The notes under the pieces are model-generated. The model was not told where the DNA came from. It saw only the letters and a list, made by a program, of their open reading frames with translations, and ran no database searches. A stretch of 64,000 nucleotides of DNA from positions 64,065 to 128,064 of the forward strand of contig JACPCV010000006.1 in NCBI GenBank assembly GCA_016184345.1, written 5' to 3'. A program made the position numbers and the translations under genes. The stretch is from Candidatus Woesearchaeota archaeon. GTDB lineage: Archaea > Nanobdellota > Nanobdellia > Woesearchaeales > UBA10216. The first letter of the stretch is position 1. Each line of letters starts with the position of its first letter. This document shows positions 14,071 through 56,733 of the stretch, one piece after another.

Positions 14071-14286
14071 TTTCTTGCAATCCCTGAATAGCTAGCAATA
14101 ATTCTTCCTTATTTTTTGCTATAACTATGCCGTTCTTTTTAAAAACGTTTACTATTCTTTCGGCAGCATTAGGCACATAAAAAATCACACTTTTAGAATC
14201 CTCTCGACTTCTTTTAAATGTTATGGATAAGACAGGCAAATACCGATAAATAAATTTATAAGCGTGCTTTGCGGAAGCAGGGATGC

Positions 14287-15306
14287 ATGAATTACGTTGA
14301 TTTCAGAAAAGAGGTCATTGATGCTGGCCTGCTCAACAGGCAGTATGGCTATTACGCATTCAAGATTATCTCTTCCCTGCTAACGGTTATTGTACCTGGT
14401 TTTCTTTTTCTTACAGTTTCGAACTTTTGGATTCAGCTGCTGCTCATAGTTGGCATCACTGTCGCGATTTTGCAGTTCGCTTTCCTGGGTCACGACGCGG
14501 GCCATATGGCAATATTCAAGAGCGACAGGTGGAACAACTTTTTCGGGCACATTTTCTTTGAGCTTTTCGGAGGGGTTGGCTACAATTATTGGGTCACCAG
14601 GCATAATGAGCACCACGCAAACCCGAACCACGAAGATGAGGATCCTGACATGATTTTTGTCCAGTCAGAAGGCATGATGGCCAGCAAGAAAGGCATCGGC
14701 CTGTTCCTTGCAAGGAGGCAGCACTGGCTTTATTTCCCCGCACTGAGCATGTACGCAATTGTTTTTCAGGTCAGGAGCGCAGTCCACAACATAAGGCTGA
14801 AGAACTCTGCGGGAAAGTGGTTTGAGCTTGTCTTGTTGCTTGCGCACCTTGGTATTTTCTGGGTTCTGCCATTTTTCTTTATGGCGTGGTGGAAGGCGCT
14901 TATTTTTGTTCCGTTGCTGCGGCTTCTTGAAGGCTTATACTTTGGCTCTGTCTCTGCAACTAACCACAAGGGCATGAGGGTCATAAAAAAGGGGGAGCGG
15001 CTCAATTTCGTTGAGAAACAGGTCCTTACAACAAGAAACGTCAGGAACGGCATTATTGTCGACTTTGTTTACGGTGGGCTTAACTACCAGATTGAGCACC
15101 ACCTTTTTCCGACAATGCCCCGCAGCAATTTCAAGAAATGCAAAGAGCTTGCAATGCGGTTTTGCAGGGAAAACAGCTTGCCGTACGTTGAAACAGGCGT
15201 TTTCAGGTCTTACAGGATAATACTTGGTGAGTTGAGAAAGATTGCCATGTCAGGAAGGCAAGCAAATATTCAGCCAGTAGAGTTGCGCACGTCAAACACA
15301 GTATAG
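14287..15306 (+). CDS. membrane fatty-acid desaturase, front-end (DesD-like) histidine-box pattern
   Basis: Three boxes: HDAGH, HNEHH and QIEHHLFP (Gln in the third box). TM segments before box 1 and between boxes 2 and 3. The ATG at 14287 is preferred to the TTG at 14269. Confidence 0.85.
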   Translation: MNYVDFRKEVIDAGLLNRQYGYYAFKIISSLLTVIVPGFLFLTVSNFWIQLLLIVGITVAILQFAFLGHDAGHMAIFKSDRWNNFFGHIFFELFGGVGYNYWVTRHNEHHANPNHEDEDPDMIFVQSEGMMASKKGIGLFLARRQHWLYFPALSMYAIVFQVRSAVHNIRLKNSAGKWFELVLLLAHLGIFWVLPFFFMAWWKALIFVPLLRLLEGLYFGSVSATNHKGMRVIKKGERLNFVEKQVLTTRNVRNGIIVDFVYGGLNYQIEHHLFPTMPRSNFKKCKELAMRFCRENSLPYVETGVFRSYRIILGELRKIAMSGRQANIQPVELRTSNTV

Positions 15307-16445
15307 CCCTTCAAATCGGCATGAACAGGGAAGTTTTCCTTAAGGATTTCAATCTCTCCCGTTTCATGAAGCGTTTTTGTTTTAATTTCGCAGTCCTTGC
15401 AGAATATGACATAGGTTGTATTAGTCTGCCGGAGATAGGAAATATATTCCTCTTCGGTCCATTCGTGCTGGTAATACTGGCCTTCAAAGTATGGCGAGAG
15501 TGAAGTAACCATCCCTTTCAGCGGGAATACGTATATCCAGCTCCTGCAGTCATCAACTATCCTGATGTTGCCGGGCAGCTGCGGGATTTCTGAGTATGTT
15601 TTTGTGTAGTAGCAGCTTATCCCCTCTTTCCATCCCATCTCAAAAGGAACGAAGAAGACAGGGTAAATGAACAGTATTCCTGCCAGGGTGGCGTAATAAG
15701 CTGCCCTCAGGCTCATTAGCCTGGACAGGAATTTCGGGGCAGATTCTGCCGCAAGCGGGAACAGCAATACGGCAGAGCGTATCGCCAGGTCAAGGATGTT
15801 ATCAAGCTCAAAATCGACAGTGCCTGACAGGAAAACGAACTTTATCAGCAGGAACTGCACTAAAAGAACAGCCAGGCTGGTTAAAAACAGCCGGAGCCTT
15901 CCGAAGAAAACAGTCACCATGTTGCTTACAGCCACGTATGGGTGGTTCAGGCCTGCCAGTGCAATCGCTATTTCACCAAACATCTCGTTCTTTGACTTCC
16001 TTATGAAGTAAACTCCCAGGTAGAACAGGAAGACTGACAATAGGTAGGGGTAAGAGTCCGGAAGCATGATTTTTATGAAGATGAGCGCGTACCAGAAGAA
16101 AAGGGCATTCCTGTTTTTGAAAGTCTTTAGCGAAACCAGGACTATGCACAGGAACAGCGCAACTTCAAGGATCTTTATGGCCAACTTCCCAAAAGCAAAC
16201 CACGCGATTCCGGCAAGGAAGTGCGAAGGCACTCCTACAGCGTAGAGCGGCTGGTTCCCGCTAAGCATGGAGAAGTCCTTTTCCAGCAGGGCGCCCTGCT
16301 CAACCATGCGGTTGTAAAGCCAGCCCCAGTGTATGTTTGAGTAGATGTCAGAGCCTGGAAGCACTAGAACGGCAGAAACGATTATGACAACAAGCAATAA
16401 CTGCAGCAGTAACAGGTTCTTGCCTTGGCTCTTTGATTCACGCAT
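15270..16445 (-). CDS. polytopic membrane protein with C-terminal soluble domain (function unknown; possibly GT-C-like)
   Basis: 391 aa with about 9-10 hydrophobic segments, then a ~110-aa Cys/Tyr-rich soluble tail. Its 3' end overlaps the desaturase 3' end by 37 nt. Confidence 0.6.
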   Translation of the reverse strand: MRESKSQGKNLLLLQLLLVVIIVSAVLVLPGSDIYSNIHWGWLYNRMVEQGALLEKDFSMLSGNQPLYAVGVPSHFLAGIAWFAFGKLAIKILEVALFLCIVLVSLKTFKNRNALFFWYALIFIKIMLPDSYPYLLSVFLFYLGVYFIRKSKNEMFGEIAIALAGLNHPYVAVSNMVTVFFGRLRLFLTSLAVLLVQFLLIKFVFLSGTVDFELDNILDLAIRSAVLLFPLAAESAPKFLSRLMSLRAAYYATLAGILFIYPVFFVPFEMGWKEGISCYYTKTYSEIPQLPGNIRIVDDCRSWIYVFPLKGMVTSLSPYFEGQYYQHEWTEEEYISYLRQTNTTYVIFCKDCEIKTKTLHETGEIEILKENFPVHADLKGYTVFDVRNSTG

Positions 16446-16568
16446 ATCCTGCAGGTCAAATCCCTCTTATTTAAGCATTATGAATGGTGGGCTGAAGTGG
16501 CGTTTACAGGCTTAATAATCGCGTGCTGCAGTCTTCAGGCAGCTTATTGCCGGATTTGAAAAGATATT

Positions 16569-16614
16569 TATAGACAACTTCGATTATCTATCTTATATAC
16601 CAAAGTTGTCTATA
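16569..16614. repeat. solo hairpin copy related to hairpin 1 of twin-hairpin element C
   Basis: TATAGACAACTT / AAGTTGTCTATA 12-bp inverted repeat with a 22-nt loop. The first 20 nt (TATAGACAACTTCGATTATC) are identical to 52347-52366. Confidence 0.7.
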
Positions 16615-16662
16615 TGCCGCAACTGCTCTTATATACAGGTAAATAAAAAAAGACGGTGCTTT

Positions 16663-17397
16663 ATGGTTGACCTTTCAGGCATTCTGCCGGTTGTTGGAAG
16701 TGCGTTTGCTGACTGGCTGAAGCTCTTTATTGCCCCGCTCAGGAACCTTGACATGCTTTGGATTATTGTCCCGGTATGGGGCGTCTGGCTTTTCTCCGAA
16801 TTTTACCAGGAAAAGAAGGGAACGAGCTTCGGCAACGCTATAGCCAACGGGGCGACTATGCTTTTTGTTGGAGTTGACTGGACGCGGCATGTCATTAGCG
16901 ACGTAACCTCCGGCGAGCTGGCATTTGGATTTAAGTTCGTCACGCTGGCAGCAATTGCTGCGGCTGTACTCATCTATGGTGTGGCAATAATCATTCTCGG
17001 AATAAAGGCGAACCGGCTTGTCAGGGTTATTGGCAGGGTGAGGGAGACCACCTATTTCATGGTCATGCTGAGCCCGGTAATTTACGGGGTGGAGGAGTTT
17101 AGCCTGAGGAGCGCGCTGGTTATGCTCACCTTTTTCCCTGTATTTTACGTGCTCGTTGAGGCCATAGACCGGCTGCTGCCTACCCCAAGAATCTTTGAGG
17201 AAGAGGAAGGAGCCGGCTTTGACAAGGAGCTGGGAATTGGCAATACTAGTGAGCCTGCACTAGGCAGCGACTTCGGCCAGGATGTTTTTGGCAGGCAACA
17301 GCAACCTCCACAGCAGCAGTGGCGGCAGCAGGCATATCCTGCCTATCCTAGCGGGTTTCAGCAGTTCAAGCCGCAGCAGCCGCAAAGGAAATTGTAG
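16663..17397 (+). CDS. membrane protein with Gln/Pro-rich C-terminal tail
   Basis: Several TM segments, then the tail QQQPPQQQWRQQAYPAYPSGFQQFKPQQPQRKL. The ATG at 16663 is preferred over the TTG at 16606, which lies inside the hairpin repeat. Confidence 0.55.
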   Translation: MVDLSGILPVVGSAFADWLKLFIAPLRNLDMLWIIVPVWGVWLFSEFYQEKKGTSFGNAIANGATMLFVGVDWTRHVISDVTSGELAFGFKFVTLAAIAAAVLIYGVAIIILGIKANRLVRVIGRVRETTYFMVMLSPVIYGVEEFSLRSALVMLTFFPVFYVLVEAIDRLLPTPRIFEEEEGAGFDKELGIGNTSEPALGSDFGQDVFGRQQQPPQQQWRQQAYPAYPSGFQQFKPQQPQRKL

Positions 17398-17409: not shown

Positions 17410-17505
17410 TATAGCATCGGAGCTTGATAATCGGATACGAATAGTCGCTCCGATGCATATAGGAGAGGAACGTATCATTCCGAAAATCTAGTTCCTCACC
17501 TATAG
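17410..17505. repeat. twin-hairpin ~95-nt intergenic element, copy A
   Basis: TATAG, hairpin 1 (GCATCGGAGC/GCTCCGATGC), hairpin 2 (ATAGGAGAGGAAC/GTTCCTCACCTAT), then AG. Aligns end to end with 47492-47585. Confidence 0.8.
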
Positions 17506-22617: not shown

Positions 22618-23310
22618 TTAATGCATCGCCTTCTCCATCTCCTCCCTTGCCTTGTCCGCTAATCTGTGCGCCAGGTGCAAGGGCTCCGGCAGCTTGTGCG
22701 GCTGCCGGATTGTTTTTGTTACGACATCTACAGCTGTATGCAGGCTTACCTTGTGGCCAACTGAAACGTATAGGGGCTTTGAGTGCGGCTTTGCCTTTAC
22801 CTCTGCGCCGATTATCTCCTTTCCCACCTTTATGTTCCCTGCCTCGTCTTCCTCGCCGAGCAGTTTTGTTTTTGCAATGCCGACAGTTGCCTGGTCCAGC
22901 TCAACTCCCAGGTGGGAAGCAAGTCCACATCGGAGCGGGTGGAGGACGCCGTTGCCGTCAACCAGCAGGATATCGGGCTTATGCCTCAGCCTGCGGAATG
23001 CCTCTTTTATGGCAGGCCCTTCGCGGAAGTAAAGCATGCCCGCAAGGTAGGGAAAATCTGTCTCTACGGCAGCGGTCTTTCTCTCTATCACGTTGAGCTT
23101 ATCGTCGCAGACAACAACTGCGGCTACCACTGCGTTGTTCGTGTATGCGCAGTCGCAACCGCCAATCGTCTTTACCTCCCCAGCTTCATCGGTCGTGACG
23201 ACCTTTCGGGCTGCTGCCAGCTGCTCCTCTTTTAACTGTTCAATGTTCATCATGAATGGGCCCGGCCAGACTTTCGAAGCCGCTTTCAAGGCTGTTCGAA
23301 CTGGCGACAT
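22618..23310 (-). CDS. nfi: endonuclease V
   Basis: Motifs GGCDCAY, YFREGPAI and LVDGNGVLHPLRCGLASHLGV. The true start may be the internal ATG pair at 23253/23250. Confidence 0.85.
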   Translation of the reverse strand: MSPVRTALKAASKVWPGPFMMNIEQLKEEQLAAARKVVTTDEAGEVKTIGGCDCAYTNNAVVAAVVVCDDKLNVIERKTAAVETDFPYLAGMLYFREGPAIKEAFRRLRHKPDILLVDGNGVLHPLRCGLASHLGVELDQATVGIAKTKLLGEEDEAGNIKVGKEIIGAEVKAKPHSKPLYVSVGHKVSLHTAVDVVTKTIRQPHKLPEPLHLAHRLADKAREEMEKAMH

Positions 23311-23409
23311 CCACCCTGTGAAGGTGGCGTCATAACCACTAGACCACAGGCCCGTAACAGCACTGTGGAAGGTAAAAGTTTAAAAAAGTTATCTGTTGCG
23401 GCAGTTCCA

Positions 23410-32721: not shown

Positions 32722-33225
32722 TCACTTTACGCGCCTGCTTTCTTCTTCTTTCATTTTCTCTCCTATGACGTTTTTAAGAGCATTGATATGAAGCTCAAAA
32801 TTCAGCCTGAACTGTTTCCAGTCATCATATTTCAAAAGCTGCCCGCGGTAATTTATCGCGTTTCTTTTAAGCCTTACCGTTTCGAGGAATTCCCAGTTCA
32901 GCTCAAGCTCGGCATGCTTAAAGCAGATGTAGGCGTTCTTGCACTGGTGGCTGTCTGCTTCAATTCCATCAAACAAGAGAAAAGCTTCAATCAGCCCACG
33001 CAAGGATTCATAGTAGTCCCTGAAGACAAAAGTCCAGTCAGTGCTGTTCTTTGGGATGTCTTTTGACATGCCATTGATAAAGTCCAGCCCCTTCTCAGCA
33101 ACTGTTTTCAGTGATTTGATTAGTTCTAAGTCAATTGCCTTCTCTTTGAATTTGCCTGAGCTCATGCAAAGAGCGAATGTGCTTTTCAAATCGTCTATCC
33201 TGACCTTCATTATGCCTCTTCTCAT
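32722..33225 (-). CDS. HEPN-like domain protein
   Basis: All-helical, with the motif ETVRLKRNAINYRG (R-x4-Y type seen in PF05168-like HEPN). Last gene of the S8 / 97-aa / HEPN operon. Paralogous fragment at 52037..52351. Confidence 0.55.
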   Translation of the reverse strand: MRRGIMKVRIDDLKSTFALCMSSGKFKEKAIDLELIKSLKTVAEKGLDFINGMSKDIPKNSTDWTFVFRDYYESLRGLIEAFLLFDGIEADSHQCKNAYICFKHAELELNWEFLETVRLKRNAINYRGQLLKYDDWKQFRLNFELHINALKNVIGEKMKEEESRRVK

Positions 33226-42837: not shown

Positions 42838-42913
42838 GCGGTAACAATTGCCCCTGCTCCTTTTAAGAATTATTATTCTGCAGAATATAGATGACTTTGA
42901 CGAAGAAGACCAA

Positions 42914-42933
42914 GATAATCAAAGTTGTCTATA
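42914..42933. repeat. half-site copy of the hairpin-1 arm motif (GATAATCAAAGTTGTCTATA)
   Basis: Matches the reverse complement of 16569-16588 / 52347-52366 (GATAATCGAAGTTGTCTATA) with one mismatch. Sits 10 nt downstream of the UPF0175 gene stop. Confidence 0.5.
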
Positions 42934-42942
42934 GGTGAGCTG

Positions 42943-43245
42943 TCACTTCTTCAGCCGTTCAGCTGTTCTTCTGCTTGTTTCGTACGCCTGTTCAGTATGC
43001 GACGCTTTTGCTTTGCGCTTTTGCGCAAGCATCAGGACATCATGCACGCTTTTATTAAGCGCCTCAGCCGCCTTTCCAAGCGATATTCTTCCCTCTCCGT
43101 AAAGTTTCAAGACATAATCTTCCACTCCCTGATAGAGGAGTTGCCTGGCGGCTGTGCTCTTGTCTACATAGTCCTCCCTCGCCTTAAATTCTATTATGGG
43201 AAATACGTTCTCGTCTATCCTTAACGGGTAAGCTTTGGTTGTCAT
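42943..43245 (-). CDS. UPF0175-like antitoxin
   Basis: 100 aa; ...LLYQGVEDYVLKLYGEGRISLGKAAEALNKSVHDVLMLAQKR resembles UPF0175 proteins paired with PIN/DUF3368 genes. Confidence 0.6.
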   Translation of the reverse strand: MTTKAYPLRIDENVFPIIEFKAREDYVDKSTAARQLLYQGVEDYVLKLYGEGRISLGKAAEALNKSVHDVLMLAQKRKAKASHTEQAYETSRRTAERLKK

Positions 43246-43251
43246 CTTTTT

Positions 43252-43746
43252 CTACGCCTCCAGTTCTTTGCCAGCTCTTGCATATTGCCCATCATCAATG
43301 AATGGCTTAAGATTTTCAAGCATTTTCTTCGCTGCATCCTTGCTTAACTCCTTTGACTTCGCCAGCAAAACAATAAAATCCGCCGGCAGCAAAAAAGGGG
43401 TGCCCTCCTGCAGCATTAAAGCAATGAACTGCTTATCATCGCTAAGTACGGCTGCCGCCCTGAGCTCTGTAAAGGCCTGTTTTGCCGCAAGCTCCCCCTT
43501 GCCAAGCCGCTCATCCACGCCAGTACCGCTCTTTTGCTTCTCATTGCCGTATAGGGCCACAATGTTTTCCTTGACAAGCTTCTCTGCCGTGAACGCATCC
43601 TGGTGCATGCCTTTCTTGCCTTCTGTGACGACTTCTTCAAAGACCTCCTGTGGTATTACGAGCTTGAAGCCTCGCAGCGCCCCAAACAGGATTTTAGCTT
43701 TTACGAGCTTTATAAACCCGTCTGAATCCAAGACGATTTTATACAT
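43252..43746 (-). CDS. PIN-like (DUF3368-type) putative toxin
   Basis: 164 aa starting MYKIVLDSDGFIKL; 6-nt gap to the UPF0175-like gene downstream in the same operon. Confidence 0.55.
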   Translation of the reverse strand: MYKIVLDSDGFIKLVKAKILFGALRGFKLVIPQEVFEEVVTEGKKGMHQDAFTAEKLVKENIVALYGNEKQKSGTGVDERLGKGELAAKQAFTELRAAAVLSDDKQFIALMLQEGTPFLLPADFIVLLAKSKELSKDAAKKMLENLKPFIDDGQYARAGKELEA

Positions 43747-43965
43747 TTTGATACAAAAAGATACAGAAGTATTTAAATTTTACTGCTGCGCCCTGGCGCA
43801 GGAGCAATGAACAGGCAGTTCGGCGTAAGCCCGCATCATCATAAAATTTATATACCTGCTTGCAGAGTGATAGCAGACAGCAAACAATGCATGCCCAGGA
43901 GGCAGGAAACTCAGGAGTATGCATTTTTTATTTTTTGGACTAAAGTCAAGAGAGGTGTGCACAGT

Positions 43966-47491: not shown

Positions 47492-47585
47492 TATAGCAAC
47501 GGAACTTAATAATCGGAACAATAGTCGCTCCGTTGCATATAGGAGAGGAAAATAGATTTCCGAAAATTAAGTTCCTCTCCTATAG
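47492..47585. repeat. twin-hairpin ~95-nt intergenic element, copy B
   Basis: TATAG, hairpin 1 (GCAACGGAAC/GCTCCGTTGC), hairpin 2 (ATAGGAGAGGAA/TTCCTCTCCTAT), then AG. Fills the convergent spacer between 47485 and 47589. Confidence 0.8.
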
Positions 47586-50593: not shown

Positions 50594-51979
50594 TCACCTT
50601 TCATAAATCATCGCAGATGCCGTGAATCCTGCAACTTCAGCAGCTTTCTTGTCAGGGAAGAATTCTGCTTTTAGTTTTCCGTCGGGGAGAAGCTGGAACA
50701 GCGCCACGCCCCTTATGTCATCGGTGTTTTCTGCATTTAGGCCCTTTGCGAATCCTACCTTATCCCATTTTTCTCCCGAACTCACGTAGTATTCGAATGT
50801 TGCAAGCTCGTACTTTACCACACCAGTTTCAATTCCAACACTGGCCGGGTCTGGGCTGTTGCCTGTTACTCCGTAAACCAGAGACCACCCTCCAATGTTT
50901 CCAACTCCTATCCTTATCTGTGAAGGGTCAATCGAATCGTAGACTATGCTTAAGTGATTTTTCCAGTACTCGCCGGGACCGCCACTATACTTCCCTGTGC
51001 CTTCCTTGAACCAGTTGCCCACAAGCCTGCCGTCTACATCATAGTCGATCTTGCCGCCAAGCGGGGTTGTTGTCCTGAGGTTTTTGGCGATAAGCTGGCT
51101 TCTTAGCGGCTCCTCATAATAATCAAACGTGTCAACGGTGTGTATCTTCCAGACTTCCCCTTCATAGCTCTCCGGGATGGCAAAGCCTTTCAACGTGACA
51201 GACTCATCAACAACGGAAAAGTCAAGCTTTCCCACGCCAATGCTCCCTATCACCTGGCCTTCCTTTACCGGAATGCGCGGCCAGACTTGCTCGCCTGGCT
51301 TGCGTTGAAGTCCGGCAGTTGCCATGATTTCATCGGTCAGTTTGTCAACGTGGATGAAGATTGTGTAGAAGTTGCATGTGTGCTCAATTATGACTCGATA
51401 ATCGCCGTCCATAAAGCCTATTTCCACGATGTTTCCATCACCTGGTGCATGAACTTTAAACCGGTCAAGATTTACCTTGTCATCTACGATGTTATTGCCG
51501 AGCGTGTCCCAGTACTGGTGGTCTGTTGGTGTGATGTGAACGCTTGACAACCCTCCCATTGGGCGTATTTTTTCTATGTCCTCAAGCGCCAATGGCGAAG
51601 CGCCCAGCATGAATGAGCCAGTGCCGTTGCAGCCCCGGGGGCTGAGCAGTCCTTTTTTTATCTCTGCAGTTGCAGGAGTGGATTGCTTTTCTTCCTCGTG
51701 AGTCTTAGCCTCAGGACTTGGGCGCTGAATCATTTGCCCTTTATCCTGCTCTTCAGTTTCAGGCTTAAGGCGCTGAATCTTTTGCCTTACCCTTTCAAGG
51801 TCTTCGCTTGGAATATCGGAAGCTTCAAACTCCCTGAATTTTTCCACAGCAGGGTCGTAAACATCATATCCAACATTCTGCGCGCTTGCTTTACTGGCTT
51901 CGTAGGGGTTTTTTTCCTGGGTGCAGCCGGCAAAGGCCGCAATAACGAGTATCAGAAGGACCAGCACCGCCTTTTTCAT
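50594..51979 (-). CDS. lipoprotein with M23/LytM-like domain (catalytic His pair apparently degenerate)
   Basis: MKKAVLVLLILVIAAFAGC lipobox-like signal. VIIEHTCNFYTIFIHVDKL and VKEGQVIGSIG match the M23 core pattern, but the terminal H-x-H is replaced (KLDF). Confidence 0.55.
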   Translation of the reverse strand: MKKAVLVLLILVIAAFAGCTQEKNPYEASKASAQNVGYDVYDPAVEKFREFEASDIPSEDLERVRQKIQRLKPETEEQDKGQMIQRPSPEAKTHEEEKQSTPATAEIKKGLLSPRGCNGTGSFMLGASPLALEDIEKIRPMGGLSSVHITPTDHQYWDTLGNNIVDDKVNLDRFKVHAPGDGNIVEIGFMDGDYRVIIEHTCNFYTIFIHVDKLTDEIMATAGLQRKPGEQVWPRIPVKEGQVIGSIGVGKLDFSVVDESVTLKGFAIPESYEGEVWKIHTVDTFDYYEEPLRSQLIAKNLRTTTPLGGKIDYDVDGRLVGNWFKEGTGKYSGGPGEYWKNHLSIVYDSIDPSQIRIGVGNIGGWSLVYGVTGNSPDPASVGIETGVVKYELATFEYYVSSGEKWDKVGFAKGLNAENTDDIRGVALFQLLPDGKLKAEFFPDKKAAEVAGFTASAMIYER

Positions 51980-52036
51980 GCTGCATATACTGCTACTGTG
52001 GTTTAAAAAACTATCCACAAAAGAAAAAAGCGCCGT

Positions 52037-52351
52037 GTGGAAGATTCCGACGTGGATTCAGCAAACATTCTCAGGAAAAACCTTCAAAAGAGCAGCAGCC
52101 AGTGGAATAGCGTTTATAAGCTGTATTACGACGCGTTGCACGAATTGGCAGAGTCCTTCTTGCAGTTTGAAAAGGCAAAAATCGACAACCACCAGTGCTT
52201 ATTTTCATATCTTTGTGAAAAACACCCGCAACTGGAGTTCAGCTGGGACTTCTTTGAGAAGGTGAGGACAAAGAGGAACGGGATTAACTATTATGGCACG
52301 CCAGTAGATTCAGACGACTGGAAAGATGCGGAACTTCAGTTTAATTTATAG
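52037..52351 (+). pseudogene. truncated paralog of the HEPN-like gene at 32722..33225
   Basis: ...DNHQCLFSYLCEKHPQLEFSWDFFEKVRTKRNGINYYG...DDWK aligns with ...DSHQCKNAYICFKHAELELNWEFLETVRLKRNAINYRG...DDWK. It lacks ~55 N-terminal and ~25 C-terminal residues. Its stop codon lies inside element C. Confidence 0.55.
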
Positions 52352-52441
52352 ACAACTTCGATTATCCCTCATTATTATATCAAAGTTGTCTTAGAGGACT
52401 TTGAACAAAAGTAACAAATAAGAGTTATTCAAAGTCCTCTA
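52347..52441. repeat. twin-hairpin ~95-nt intergenic element, copy C (divergent sequence, same architecture)
   Basis: TATAG, hairpin 1 (AGACAACTT/AAGTTGTCT, 24-nt loop), hairpin 2 (TAGAGGACTTTGAA/TTCAAAGTCCTCTA, 14 bp, 22-nt loop). Confidence 0.75.
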
Positions 52442-52513
52442 TACATTAAAAAATTAAGGGAAGAGATTAAGAAGAAGCTTGGTAAATGAGTGCCAATAAT
52501 AAAAGCGCCGCGG

Positions 52514-54760: not shown

Positions 54761-54796
54761 GGGCTGAGGCGATATTCGCTTCAGCCTCAATTTTCT
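54761..54796 (+). terminator. hairpin (GGGCTGAGGCG-ATATT-CGCTTCAGCCT) followed by T-rich tract
   Basis: Starts 2 nt after the tRNA 3' end, followed by CAATTTTCT. Overlaps the stop of the convergent LAGLIDADG gene. Confidence 0.5.
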
Positions 54797-55593
54797 AATT
54801 TTGTAGCAGCCACTAAAGCTATTTTAACTTTTAATCTATCACTATTTACATTACGAGCTTGCCAAAGCTGAAATTTATTAAGATGCTTTGGACTGGCAAA
54901 GCCAATCATCTTCATCCACGAAATCAATTGCGTTGGACCGTAAATATGAATTCTGTGAATAATACTAAAGCCTCTTTTAAATCTGATATCCTTTTGAACT
55001 ATATCGAAGGAACGAGAGACTTTGAGACCAAGTAATTCCAATGCAGATGCAATTTCTTCCATATAAGCCCTACTTTTAGAAGCGCCTGTAATCACAGGAT
55101 AATAGGGCAGTGATTTGTAGCGCTTTTTTAATGTTAGGCAAAAATCAGTATCAGCCAAGCCACGGATGTAGGACTTCAGGAAAGGTTGATTTTCTTTAAT
55201 CCAAAAAGGGATTTTAAGCTGGTTATATTTATTATTTGAAGGCAGACCTAGAATTTGAGTCAGATAAGTTGCTATCCACTTTGAGCCAAACTCGAAACCG
55301 AAAGTTCCTGAGTGAAAGTCTTTGACCTTTACTTCTAAGTTGAATAGCTTCTTGAGTAAAGGTAAGAGCACATCGAAATAAAGGGGCTTCTCATCAAGGG
55401 GGTTGCCTGAACAATGAATCCCATACCGCTGCTTATCAAGATTAAGTTCTATATGCCCATCACCTGCAAGAATCCCACAGAAATACGCCAAATCGTCCGA
55501 GTATTCTGTAGGCAATCGTATGCCTTTTTTTATGTCAACATGTGAAGGCTTAACTTCAAACTCATCAAATCGTATCAAATTGCTCATTTTCAT
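54787..55593 (-). CDS. free-standing LAGLIDADG homing endonuclease (double-motif)
   Basis: Motifs FCGILAGDGH and YIRGLADTDF about 105 aa apart. AT-rich. The ATG at 55593 with GGAG upstream is preferred to the TTG at 55617. Confidence 0.85.
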   Translation of the reverse strand: MKMSNLIRFDEFEVKPSHVDIKKGIRLPTEYSDDLAYFCGILAGDGHIELNLDKQRYGIHCSGNPLDEKPLYFDVLLPLLKKLFNLEVKVKDFHSGTFGFEFGSKWIATYLTQILGLPSNNKYNQLKIPFWIKENQPFLKSYIRGLADTDFCLTLKKRYKSLPYYPVITGASKSRAYMEEIASALELLGLKVSRSFDIVQKDIRFKRGFSIIHRIHIYGPTQLISWMKMIGFASPKHLNKFQLWQARNVNSDRLKVKIALVAATKLEN

Positions 55594-55668
55594 CTTCTTC
55601 ACACTCCAAAACCTCAATCAAGCGTTGAGGTTTCTTCCGTTAGGAAAGAAACTTCCGCAGTTTGGAAA

Positions 55669-55762: not shown

Positions 55763-55905
55763 GAGCCCCTCATAAGAAGTCATTTATATACCTTAGCCGG
55801 GCACTTGTCCAGTGTCCAGTGAGAAACTACGAGAATTCTGGAAAATTTTCGGGTTAAGTGCACAAAACCATCAACATTAAAAACAGGGTAAAATATGACT
55901 TAAGT

Positions 55906-56733
55906 ATGACCGAAGAGTCAGAATATTACGTGTATGTTTATATTGATCCAAGGAATTATGAGGAATTCTATTATGGAAAGGGTAAAGGGGATAGAAAAGA
56001 AGCTCATTTATTTGATGAAGGCGACTCAGAAAAATCAAAAAGGATAAAGGACATAAAAAATGAGGGGCTTAATCCAATAATAAGGGTAATTGCAAAAGGC
56101 CTTTCAGAAAGTGATGCGTTTTTAATTGAAAAAACATTGATTTGGAAATTAGGTCGCACACTTACAAACAAGTCGTCTGGACATTTTGCCGAGAAATTCA
56201 GGCCGCATAACACCTTTCATGTATCCCTTCCATTGTTCGACTATAAAAATGGAGTTTATTATGTCAACGTGGGGGAAGGAAGCACACGCTGCTGGGAAGA
56301 TTGCCAAAAGTATTGTTTTATTTCAGCGGGTCAAGGGAAAAAATGGAGCGACCAAATCAAATCCTTGGAAATTGGTGATGTTGTGGTTGCGTATCTTAAA
56401 AAGCACGGCTTTGTTGGAATAGGTAGGGTTAAAGAAAAAGCTGTGCCCGTACTTGACTTCAGGTTTAACGGCGGTTTACTCTCTGATTTTGAACTTAAAA
56501 GCAAGGAGATTTTCAAAAATTGCAAAAACGAAAACGGAGAATTTTTAGTAAAAATAGATTGGATTAAAACAGTTGACAGAAGGCGTGCAAGATTCCAAAG
56601 GAATGCGGGTCTTTTCACAACCCAACTCGTAAAGGCTTCGCTGGATAAGCAGATCAAAACTTTAGAATTTTTAGAACAGGGATTCGGATTAAAGTTCAGC
56701 GACATATTATTAAAAGATATAAAACGAAGTTAA
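55906..56733 (+). CDS. GIY-YIG nuclease-domain protein with unassigned C-terminal domain
   Basis: N-terminal YYVYVYIDPRNYEEFYYGKGKGDRKEAH...IEKTLI fits GIY-YIG. The C-terminal ~170 aa (KKWSDQIKSLEIGDVVVAYLKKHGFVGIGRV) may be a PUA/EVE-like fold (guess). TATA-like TCATTTATATACC at 55781-55793. Confidence 0.75.
   Translation: MTEESEYYVYVYIDPRNYEEFYYGKGKGDRKEAHLFDEGDSEKSKRIKDIKNEGLNPIIRVIAKGLSESDAFLIEKTLIWKLGRTLTNKSSGHFAEKFRPHNTFHVSLPLFDYKNGVYYVNVGEGSTRCWEDCQKYCFISAGQGKKWSDQIKSLEIGDVVVAYLKKHGFVGIGRVKEKAVPVLDFRFNGGLLSDFELKSKEIFKNCKNENGEFLVKIDWIKTVDRRRARFQRNAGLFTTQLVKASLDKQIKTLEFLEQGFGLKFSDILLKDIKRS

What the first reader, a model, noticed from the sequence alone, without database searches (positions are those of the whole stretch)
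52347..52441. Copy C: same two-hairpin architecture, different stems, apparently truncating a HEPN-like gene
52347-52441 is also ~95 nt and starts TATAG. It has hairpin 1 (AGACAACTT/AAGTTGTCT, 24-nt loop) directly followed by hairpin 2 (TAGAGGACTTTGAA/TTCAAAGTCCTCTA, 14 bp perfect, 22-nt loop) and ends CTCTATA. Stem sequences differ from A and B, but lengths, loop sizes and termini match. The hairpin-1 loop contains CGATTAT, the reverse complement of ATAATCG in the A/B hairpin-1 loops. The stop codon of the HEPN-like fragment 52037..52351 (TAG at 52349-52351) lies inside the element's first arm. The fragment ends ~25 residues short of its paralog at 32722..33225. That pattern fits insertion of a mobile element into a gene.
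Basis: partly seen in the sequence, partly recalled or inferred. Interest (0 to 1): 0.65.

Follow-up and report, generated by a model that had tools for sequence, protein, structure and literature searches.

The report
Mobile hairpin pair splitting HEPN relic
A 93-base, two-hairpin piece of mobile DNA has inserted precisely at a TATA inside a decayed toxin (HEPN) gene of a Woesearchaeota archaeon; it belongs to a family of tiny TATA-flanked hairpin modules that stack into mosaic arrays, much like bacterial REP/BIME or Correia repeats, and I found no published description of such a family in archaea.

Summary
The two abutted hairpins at 52347-52443 are real (fold z = -7.4). They are a precise 93-nt insertion at a TATA inside a HEPN-fold gene relic. 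All 13 aligned 155-aa orthologues read ...LQFNL|YIKKLREEIKKKL. One gives a DNA-level empty site identical to the window's flanks. The 15 missing codons lie in frame directly after the element.

The insert is a fused T1|T2 module of a family of small hairpin units: a G...C core of 34-48 nt, a 10-16 bp stem and a 17-24 nt loop, bracketed by TATA. The window holds five loci. Copies A and B are another fused pair (T8|T7), and two are solo T1 units.

Related Woesearchaeota contigs carry at least 12 stem types. They abut at TATA into mosaic arrays, occur in either orientation, nest in each other's loops, and differ between strains at one locus. This is non-autonomous, structure-defined mobile DNA. 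It is closest to bacterial REP/BIME and Correia-type MITEs, and I found no archaeal description.

No transposase was found, so the enzyme and the duplication question stay open. The intron reading fails a BHB test that has a positive control. The gene is also 5'-truncated and lacks its MNT partner, so the insertion probably has little functional consequence.

The parts
52347..52350 (.). Left TATA bracketing copy C. This is one of two copies of the target tetranucleotide; the empty site has a single TATA.
   Evidence: Empty site AATT-TATA-CATT in L006 against TATA-[89 nt]-TATA in the window.
52351..52390 (+). Unit T1 core (hairpin 1), GACAACTT...AAGTTGTC. The in-frame TAG stop at 52349-52351 overlaps its first base.
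   Evidence: Fold. 87.5% identical to the solo unit at 16569. Aligned with 7 metagenomic T1 copies.
52391..52393 (.). Imperfect internal junction TTA that fuses T1 to T2. It is TAA in all 7 metagenomic T1|T2 copies.
52394..52439 (+). Unit T2 core (hairpin 2), GAGGACTTTGAA...TTCAAAGTCCTC.
   Evidence: Fold. There is a compensatory G-C against A-U pair relative to the metagenomic copies.
52440..52443 (.). Right TATA bracketing copy C. Its last two bases start the Tyr codon TAC of the gene remnant.
52037..52348 (+). HEPN-fold gene relic, the part upstream of the insertion (about residues 43-140 of a 155-aa protein). The N-terminal ~40 residues and the MNT partner gene are missing.
   Evidence: Fold assignment.
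52442..52489 (+). 3' remnant of the same gene, YIKKLREEIKKKLGK plus TGA, in the same frame as the upstream part.
17410..17504 (+). Copy A, a fused T8|T7 module (TATA-GCATCGGAGC..-ATATA-GGAGAGGAAC..-TATA). The TAG of its terminal TATAG, read on the minus strand, is the stop codon of the fumarase gene.
   Evidence: All Logan contigs break 32 nt past the gene, inside T7.
47492..47584 (+). Copy B, a second T8|T7 module. It is 85% identical to A and its flanks are unrelated to A's.
16569..16614 (+). Solo T1 unit with both TATAs. It lies at a gene-order breakpoint relative to the sister genome.
42886..42933 (-). Solo T1-like unit (GATGACTTTGA...TCAAAGTTGTC, with two G-T wobbles). It lies exactly where synteny with two relatives breaks, next to an inserted TA cassette.

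Best explanation
Copy C is one copy of a two-hairpin module (T1|T2, 93 nt including one TATA). It belongs to a family of non-autonomous, structure-defined mobile DNA units in Woesearchaeota. The module inserted at the TATA formed by codons TTA-TAC (Leu140/Tyr141) of a HEPN-fold toxin gene. Because every unit begins TA|TAG, the reading frame meets TAG at once and the last 15 codons are stranded downstream.

Shown:
- The insertion is precise against a DNA-level empty site.
- Every unit is a G...C palindrome bracketed by TATA.
- At least 12 unrelated stem types share only this geometry and these termini.
- Modules abut at TATA into mosaic arrays, occur in both orientations, sit inside each other's loops, and differ between strains at one locus.
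- Pairs with a mutated internal junction (T1|T2, T8|T7, T3|T4, T5|T6) travel as fused two-hairpin modules.

Inferred:
- The units are mobilised in trans by an enzyme that reads a hairpin or cruciform plus the terminal TATAG, rather than a specific inverted-repeat sequence.
- The enzyme is most likely an HUH/Y1 single-strand transposase acting as on IS200/IS605 PATEs or REPs, with TATA as the flank motif and CTATA as the element-encoded end. I put this at about 0.4.
- The alternative is a DDE enzyme making a 4-bp staggered cut at TATA, at about 0.35.

The insertion probably had little functional consequence, because the gene also lacks its 5' end and its antitoxin partner.
For: - Precise insertion.
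- Family significance.
- A and B are 85% identical with unrelated flanks, so the pair moved as a unit.
- Catalogue of 57 cores in 12 types, all TATA-bracketed. T2 is next to T1 in 8 of 8 cases and T8 next to T7 in 5 of 5.
- Similarity among 8 T1|T2 copies starts and stops exactly at TATA.
- Mosaic arrays.
- One locus carries 2, 7 or 8 units in different strains, with T8 split by T5|T6. T5 sits inside a T4 loop.
- Sister genomes lack the units at orthologous sites.
- The same junction appears in an independent assembly (L001).
- IS200/IS605 is the commonest IS family in archaea and uses hairpin ends, a flank motif and scarless joints (PMC13343696, PMC10055086).
Against: - No transposase of any kind lies next to a unit in the window (about 40 ORFs) or in the related contigs.
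- No IS200-type DH[VI]H...Y[IV]ENQ signature appears in the 617 kb fetched.
- The two-fold symmetry (TATA on both sides, both strands equivalent) is unlike the asymmetric ends of IS200/IS605.
- TA bookkeeping at two diverged array sites does not fit any single duplication model cleanly.
- Ten samples of one strain group show no presence/absence polymorphism at five sites, so current activity is not shown.
- The metagenomic loci were selected by a T7 pattern, so unit density there is biased upward.
Confidence: 0.85

Rival explanations
1. It is a classical MITE. A DDE transposase (for example IS5-like) makes a 4-bp staggered cut at TATA, the hairpin arms are simply terminal inverted repeats, and the flanking TATAs are a target-site duplication.
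For: - Copy C fits a 4-bp TATA duplication exactly: TATA + 89 nt + TATA against a single TATA.
- The outer ends of T1|T2 form a 10/11 inverted repeat, GACAACTTTGA against GAGAACTTTGA.
- A DDE_Tnp_1 relic lies next to one T1|T2 copy.
Against: - Twelve unrelated stem or 'TIR' sequences share only TATAG, so a sequence-reading DDE enzyme would need many cognates.
- The outer ends of T8|T7 match at only 5/10 positions.
- The DDE relic and its relatives are decayed fragments with no unit-like termini.
- The site that holds the extra T8'|T7' module in L068 is not TATA in the other strains.
Confidence: 0.35
2. It is an archaeal bulge-helix-bulge intron. The 93 nt (31 codons) would be removed from the mRNA by the tRNA splicing endonuclease, so the gene is intact at the RNA level.
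For: - The length is a multiple of three, and removal restores the orthologous protein exactly.
- The organism does splice non-canonical introns: tRNA-Val in the window has a 24-nt T-loop intron.
Against: - No BHB with flanking helices exists at the 93-nt spacing. The same scan finds a canonical hBHBh' at exactly 24 nt in the tRNA control.
- Identical modules lie in intergenic arrays, in both orientations and inside each other's loops.
- The gene also lacks its 5' end.
Confidence: 0.02
3. The units are host-functional structured elements, such as 3'-end RNA stabilisers or terminators, protein-binding sites or promoter modules, maintained by selection. Their spread is secondary.
For: - Units are almost always extragenic and often abut stop codons of convergent genes, as at A, B and the metagenomic arrays.
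- Pairing is kept across copies, with one compensatory pair and 3-4 G-U wobbles against one C-A mismatch.
- Arrays are stable across ten samples.
- REPs and Correia elements have acquired such roles (PMC3733652, PMC2649163).
Against: - Function does not explain the precise insertion into a gene relic, the nesting, or the strain-specific arrays.
- No oligo-T tract follows the hairpins.
- Sister genomes do without the units at the same sites.

This reading is compatible with, rather than opposed to, the mobile-element explanation.
Confidence: 0.15
4. The hairpins are integron-type attC recombination sites marking gene-cassette boundaries.
For: - Unit 42886 borders an inserted toxin-antitoxin cassette.
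- Copy C lies in a toxin-antitoxin relic.
- attC sites are recognised as folded single strands (my knowledge).
Against: - There are no R-box (GTTRRRY) termini, extrahelical bases or intI gene.
- Arrays hold hairpins back to back with no ORFs between them.
- Stems are perfect.
Confidence: 0.03
5. It is a chance hairpin pair or an assembly artefact.
For: None beyond the AT-richness of the surroundings.
Against: - z = -7.4.
- The family statistics.
- An identical junction in an independent Logan assembly.
- Eight homologous T1|T2 copies in other assemblies.
Confidence: 0.01

Closest known systems
REP / BIME elements with RAYT (TnpA_REP) transposases; REPINs
   Same: - Short palindromic units with a conserved terminal tag.
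- Several stem families in one genome.
- Singletons, fixed homo- or heterodimers, and mosaic clusters in mixed orientation.
- Mostly extragenic, occasionally intragenic.
- Recognised by structure plus tag (PMC3733652, PMC2817692, PMC6006769).
   Different: - The tag here is TATAG on both sides, a palindromic bracket, not GTAG or CGTC at one end.
- Stems are AT-richer and loops are long (17-24 nt).
- Units abut directly at TATA.
- The host is a DPANN archaeon, whereas RAYT classes are reported only in bacteria and archaea have only classical IS200 TnpA (PMC6006769).
- No RAYT-like gene was found.
IS200/IS605 family and its gene-less derivatives (PATEs)
   Same: - A hairpin at each end.
- No classical inverted repeats are needed.
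- Insertion occurs next to a short motif (TAM), and a similar motif (TEM) sits at the element's other end.
- Joints are scarless.
- It is the commonest IS family in archaea (PMC10055086, PMC13343696).
   Different: - Known members are asymmetric, with cleavage sites some distance from the hairpins and guide sequences at the hairpin foot.
- Here the motif is part of the stem base on both sides.
- A single hairpin can be a complete unit.
- No TnpA or TnpB was found nearby.
Correia repeat-enclosed elements (Neisseria MITEs)
   Same: - Termini read TATAG... (consensus TATAG[CT]GGATTA..., PMC2649163).
- The elements are palindromic, non-coding and multi-copy.
- They interrupt genes.
- The mobilising enzyme is still unknown.
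- The target is TA-based (TA duplication, from my knowledge).
   Different: - Correia elements are 100-155 bp, with one 26-bp inverted-repeat sequence family and a conserved core.
- A TA-only duplication predicts +95 nt at copy C, whereas +93 nt is observed.
- There are no multi-type mosaic arrays.
Rickettsia palindromic elements (RPE)
   Same: Small palindromic repeats inserted inside protein-coding genes with a length that keeps the frame (PMC3733652).
   Different: RPEs are translated as part of the protein. Copy C starts with an in-frame TAG and holds a second stop, TAA, so it cannot be read through.
Archaeal BHB introns in protein-coding genes (e.g. cbf5; my knowledge)
   Same: An intervening sequence in an archaeal gene whose removal restores the frame.
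   Different: There is no BHB motif at the junctions. The same sequence is a dispersed DNA repeat.

Membership tests
MITE (DDE-mobilised) | Small, non-coding, multi-copy | tested here: met
   93-97 nt with stops in frame. There are 5 loci in the window and 57 cores overall.
MITE (DDE-mobilised) | Terminal inverted repeats shared by family members | tested here: inconclusive
   The arms of each unit are inverted repeats, but 12 types share only TATAG. The outer ends match 10/11 for T1|T2 and only 5/10 for T8|T7.
MITE (DDE-mobilised) | Target-site duplication of fixed length | tested here: inconclusive
   Copy C has TATA on both sides against one TATA in the empty site. This also fits insertion in the middle of TATA without duplication. 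Other sites are ambiguous.
MITE (DDE-mobilised) | A cognate autonomous IS with the same ends | tested here: not met
   None in the window or the related loci. The DDE_Tnp_1 relic has no unit-like ends.
REP/BIME-RAYT | 20-40 nt palindromes with a conserved tetranucleotide tag | tested here: inconclusive
   The palindromes are tagged, but the tag is TATA(G) on both sides rather than GTAG or CGTC at one end (PMC3733652).
REP/BIME-RAYT | Clusters or mosaics of units in mixed orientation, with dimers | tested here: met
REP/BIME-RAYT | A single-copy RAYT gene flanked by its REPs | tested here: not met
   No Y1/HUH signature in the 617 kb fetched. The whole genome was not available, and RAYTs are unknown in archaea (PMC6006769).
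IS200/IS605 PATE | Hairpins at both ends, no inverted repeats required | tested here: met
IS200/IS605 PATE | Insertion 3' of a fixed motif with no duplication, and scarless excision | tested here: inconclusive
   The left flank is WTATA and the element end is CTATA in all modules. This cannot be told apart from a 4-bp duplication.
IS200/IS605 PATE | TnpA (Y1) in the genome with matching ends; strand bias relative to replication | not testable with these tools
   Only 64 kb plus about 18 kb of the source genome could be read. None was found there.
Archaeal BHB intron | Bulge-helix-bulge motif placing both junctions in 3-nt bulges 4 bp apart | tested here: not met
   There is no candidate with flanking helices at the 93-nt spacing. 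The positive control, the tRNA-Val intron, was found at 24 nt.
Archaeal BHB intron | Removal at the RNA level | not testable with these tools
   No transcript data were available.
Correia / IS630-type TA-duplicating elements | Duplication of a TA dinucleotide flanking a TAG...CTA element | tested here: not met
   This predicts +95 nt and a single TA in the empty site. Observed are +93 nt and TATA in the empty site.
Integron attC | R'' / R' boxes, extrahelical bases, cassette ORFs, intI | tested here: not met
   Stems are perfect, there is no GTTRRRY, and hairpins sit back to back without ORFs.
HEPN domain (the interrupted gene) | HEPN fold plus an adjacent MNT nucleotidyltransferase | tested here: met
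   The AF2 model has pLDDT 87.7. Its best PDB match is the HEPN protein 2hsb (probability 1.0, TM 0.61/0.73), followed by MNT-HEPN toxins. Orthologues sit directly after NTP_transf_2 genes. There is no Pfam or PDB sequence hit. The catalytic Rx4-6H motif reads RNGINY.

The most novel reading that the evidence does not exclude
This is the first REP/BIME-like system seen in Archaea. It is a set of about 40-nt hairpin modules recognised by shape plus a palindromic TATAG bracket, and it is mobilised by an enzyme that is not a RAYT: either a classical IS200 TnpA acting in trans on many stem types or an undescribed structure-specific nuclease/ligase. Its obligate target, TATA, is the core of archaeal promoters. 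Insertions would therefore regenerate a TATA box on both sides and could move or create promoters in small DPANN genomes.
Probability: 0.35. Interest if true: 0.7.

Novelty: new variant of a known kind. Interest (0 to 1): 0.6.

Why it matters
DPANN archaea have small genomes, which by general expectation hold little repetitive DNA. A family of structure-defined mobile hairpins that reaches 13 units in a 19-kb contig (a contig recovered through a gene adjacent to a module, so this density is biased upward) would matter in four ways:
- It would extend the REP/BIME and MITE phenomenon to Archaea.
- It points to an unidentified mobilising enzyme that tolerates many stem sequences.
- It explains recurrent assembly breaks in Woesearchaeota MAGs.
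- It gives a clean natural example of TATA-targeted insertion.

For annotation, the units create false gene ends. The stop codons of the fumarase gene and of the HEPN relic both lie in an element terminus.

Tried and rejected
1. A genome-contig scan with TAGACAACTTCGATTAT gave 29 single hits in unrelated bacteria, which is chance level (about 70 expected). The source genome is not in that collection.
2. Two viral-contig scans returned only generic AT-rich palindromes or nothing.
3. The 391-aa ORF beside unit 16569 was tested as a multi-copy transposase. It is not paralogous to the other 391-aa ORF.
4. The DDE_Tnp_1 relic beside a T1|T2 copy was tested as the mobiliser. Its relatives are also fragments and have no unit-like ends.
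5. A motif scan for archaeal IS200 TnpA over all fetched DNA found nothing.
6. Rfam gave no hit at gathering threshold and only sub-threshold miRNA-like noise at the E-value threshold.
7. The 75-nt difference between L001 and the window is a coding indel, not a unit.
8. TA-count bookkeeping at nested sites, meant to separate 0-, 2- and 4-bp duplication models, was inconsistent. The likely causes are TA-run slippage and flank divergence.
9. A search for strain polymorphism across ten samples of one region found none.
10. Covariation within T1|T2 is thin, with one compensatory pair, so it cannot settle RNA-level against DNA-level selection.

Full report
OBSERVATION. The sequence at 52347-52443 reads TATA-GACAACTT[24-nt loop]AAGTTGTC-TTA-GAGGACTTTGAA[22-nt loop]TTCAAAGTCCTC-TATA. 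With DNA parameters the energy is -18.9 kcal/mol. ORF 52037..52351 stops at the TAG formed by the element's first bases. The only correction is that CTCTATA ends at 52443, not 52441.

IT IS A PRECISE INSERTION.
- Reading on in the same frame gives ...LQFNL*[31 codons, with a second stop]YIKKLREEIKKKLGK*.
- A search with the joined protein found 534 relatives. Most of the 120 listed are 155 aa and cover 88-100% of the query.
- In the alignment, all 13 intact proteins read ...ELQFNL YIKKLREEIKKKL.., so the break lies between residues 140 and 141.
- One orthologous contig (L006, 90% nucleotide identity) has AATTTATACATTAAAAAATTAAGGGAAGAG. This is the window's left flank joined to its right flank with 93 nt fewer.
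- The empty site has one TATA and the filled site has TATA-[89 nt G...C]-TATA. This fits a 4-bp duplication or an insertion into the centre of TATA without duplication. It does not fit a TA-only duplication, which would add 95 nt.
- An independent Logan assembly of the same organism carries the identical junction.

THE GENE.
- Neither the fragment nor its paralogue matches Pfam, and a profile of the family matches no PDB sequence.
- An AlphaFold model of an intact orthologue (pLDDT 87.7) is most similar to the HEPN protein AF_0298 (2hsb, probability 1.0, TM 0.61/0.73). MNT-HEPN toxins follow.
- The orthologues lie directly after NTP_transf_2 genes. 'HEPN-like' is therefore reasonable.
- The window copy also lacks about 40 N-terminal residues and has no partner gene. 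Similarity to L006 begins only at 52049. It is a relic, and the order of truncation and insertion cannot be told.

A FAMILY IN THE WINDOW. TATAG...CTATA spans occur four times against 0.36 expected. Strict TA-G[>=8 perfect bp]C-TA hairpins occur 3 times against 0.02 expected. Generic hairpins are not enriched. The members are:
- a solo unit at 16569-16614, 87.5% identical to hairpin 1 of C;
- a solo variant at 42886-42933;
- copy A at 17410-17504;
- copy B at 47492-47584;
- copy C.

A and B are 85% identical over both hairpins and their flanks are unrelated (53%), so the pair moved as one piece. In A, the fumarase stop codon is the TAG of the terminal TATAG. Removing the element plus one TATA leaves CAG CTA TAA, so the protein is unchanged, and the sister genome has no element there. 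All five Logan contigs with this gene end 32 nt past it, inside the unit, as expected for a repeat. Unit 42886 lies exactly where two relatives read gcagaaTATActtgcc. In the window, the unit there is followed by an inserted UPF0175-type toxin-antitoxin cassette.

HOST AND RELATIVES. The window is archaeal (Nre, PolX-PHP, AlaRS, GatB). GatB is 82-90% identical to its closest homologues, and those that carry a name are Woesearchaeota proteins. A further 18 kb of the same genome holds no unit. Neither do 21 kb of one sister genome and 21 kb of another relative. A third relative has one unit with a new stem.

THE WIDER FAMILY. The single metagenome scan, using the hairpin-2 type of A/B, returned 13 loci. 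The contigs with 46-51% G+C carry the same unit types as the window, packed head to tail.

A catalogue of 57 cores defines 12 stem types. Each core runs from G to C, is 34-48 nt long, and has a 10-16 bp stem and a 17-24 nt loop. It is bracketed by TATA or a one-base variant. Junctions between different modules are TATA. Four pairs recur with a fixed, imperfect internal junction:
- T1|T2, joined by TAA (TTA in the window), with T2 next to T1 in 8 of 8 cases;
- T8|T7, joined by ATATA, with T8 next to T7 in 5 of 5 cases;
- T3|T4, joined by TAATA;
- T5|T6, joined by TATTTA.

Copy C is T1|T2 and copies A and B are T8|T7. This explains the 'same architecture, different stems'. An alignment of eight T1|T2 copies is 88% identical, and the similarity starts and stops exactly at the two TATAs. 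One stem pair differs by a compensatory change (G-C in the window, A-U elsewhere), and one-sided changes are mostly G-U. Another T1|T2 copy (L065) is again 93 nt and lies beside the 3' relic of a DDE transposase gene.

TURNOVER. Between two conserved anchors, one locus differs among strains:
- Two strains have TATA[T7]TATAT[T8]TATA.
- A third has seven units, with a T5|T6 module inside the loop of T8, splitting it.
- A fourth has a different set of eight.

A solo T5 sits inside the loop of a T4 unit elsewhere. Modules occur in both orientations relative to their neighbours. In contrast, ten samples of one strain group have identical content at five sites. The arrays are therefore stable over short times.

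MECHANISM. The units are copies, not locally generated palindromes, because the same sequences occur at unrelated sites. They carry no gene, so they must be moved in trans. The only features shared by all types are the hairpin geometry and the TATAG/CTATA ends. This argues for recognition of structure plus a short tag, as in REPs with RAYTs or IS200/IS605 ends with TnpA. In that framework the left flank (WTATA) is the adjacent motif and CTATA is the element-encoded motif (PMC10055086). A DDE enzyme cutting TATA with a 4-bp stagger would give the same picture at copy C.

I could not find the enzyme. There is no transposase among about 40 window ORFs. None appears among the 25 families shown for 67 ORFs of the module-rich contigs, nor among 10 small ORFs beside the arrays, apart from the DDE relic. 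That relic has no unit-like ends. No IS200 TnpA signature occurs in the 617 kb fetched.

REJECTED READINGS. An intron was worth testing, because 93 nt is 31 codons and this organism does splice. The window's tRNA-Val(CAC), on the minus strand at 23353-23257, has a 24-nt insert in its T-loop that the sister genome lacks. My BHB scan finds a canonical motif at exactly that spacing. For copy C there is no motif with flanking helices at 93 nt. Rfam has nothing. The attC features are absent.

COMPARISON AND NOVELTY. The closest known systems are REP/BIME elements (tagged palindromes, dimers, mosaics), IS200/IS605 PATEs, and Correia elements, whose ends also read TATAG (PMC3733652, PMC10055086, PMC2649163). 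According to PMC6006769, REP-associated transposases are bacterial and archaea have only classical IS200 TnpA. The 2026 survey of archaeal insertion sequences does not mention such units (PMC13343696), and my literature searches found no description. I rate it a new variant of a known kind.

Noticed in passing
window 23257-23353 (minus strand); intron 23271-23294: A tRNA-Val(CAC) gene missed by ARAGORN and by Rfam at gathering threshold. It carries a 24-nt insert in the T-loop with a canonical bulge-helix-bulge motif. The sister genome (L049:3457-3530) has the intron-less gene. The mechanical ORF 22618..23310 (endonuclease V) overlaps it, and the real start of that gene is probably the ATG at 23253.
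   Followed up: partly
window 42890-43838: A two-gene cassette (100-aa UPF0175-type antitoxin at 42943-43245 and a 164-aa partner at 43252-43746, both on the minus strand) replaces 31 nt found in two relatives. It starts right after hairpin unit 42886.
   Followed up: partly
window 51874/51875 against L001:340-414: Another sample of the same organism has a 75-nt (25-codon) in-frame insertion in the M23-like lipoprotein gene 50594..52018. It is not a hairpin unit.
   Followed up: partly
window 14269-17397 against L049:11486-16000: Gene order differs from the sister genome next to solo unit 16569. The fatty-acid desaturase gene and the 391-aa gene are swapped without inversion, and two sister-genome genes (188 and 113 aa) are absent. 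L049:12232-12270 has a weak hairpin, TATAGGACAACAC..GCTGTTGTATATA, at the corresponding place.
   Followed up: partly
window 54787-55617 and 55858-56733: Free-standing LAGLIDADG-like and LEM-3-type GIY-YIG nuclease genes lie next to each other, 2.3 kb from copy C. Both are weak Pfam matches, and no link to the hairpin units was found.
   Followed up: no
window 16510-16530: GCTTAATAATCG, resembling the start of the T8 loop, lies 54 nt upstream of solo unit 16569. It may be a decayed T8 unit.
   Followed up: no
L061:1208-1275, L069:2284-2400, L067:7804-7848, L070:465-509: Contigs with 37-41% G+C from other metagenomes carry TATAGGTGAGGAA..TTCCTCACCTATA palindromes. In L061 this one is nested inside further TATA-ended palindromes, and the whole 190 nt folds at -155 kcal/mol. 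The organisms were not identified, so this may be a wider family or convergence.
   Followed up: partly
L060:3910-3960, L066:1078-1130 and 1560-1608: The variable array locus is flanked by a different class of hairpins with G+C-rich stems and 3-4 nt loops (GCAATTCCGCC-CAT-GGCGGAATTGC, ACAATCCTAC-CCTG-TAGGATTTGT, CCGCTGGTG-AGAA-CACCAGCGG). They are conserved between strains.
   Followed up: no
window 52049-52513 against L006, L002: The HEPN relic is 90% identical in DNA to a contig of unknown origin, and 75-92% identical in protein to many Woesearchaeota/Nanoarchaeota MAG proteins. It is only 40% identical to the paralogue in its own genome. This suggests the MNT-HEPN module spreads horizontally among DPANN archaea.
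   Followed up: partly
L074:1-8500: Upstream of the module-rich region lies a run of about ten same-strand ORFs without Pfam matches, plus an HTH_17 (excisionase-like) gene and a DnaJ gene. This may be an integrated element.
   Followed up: no
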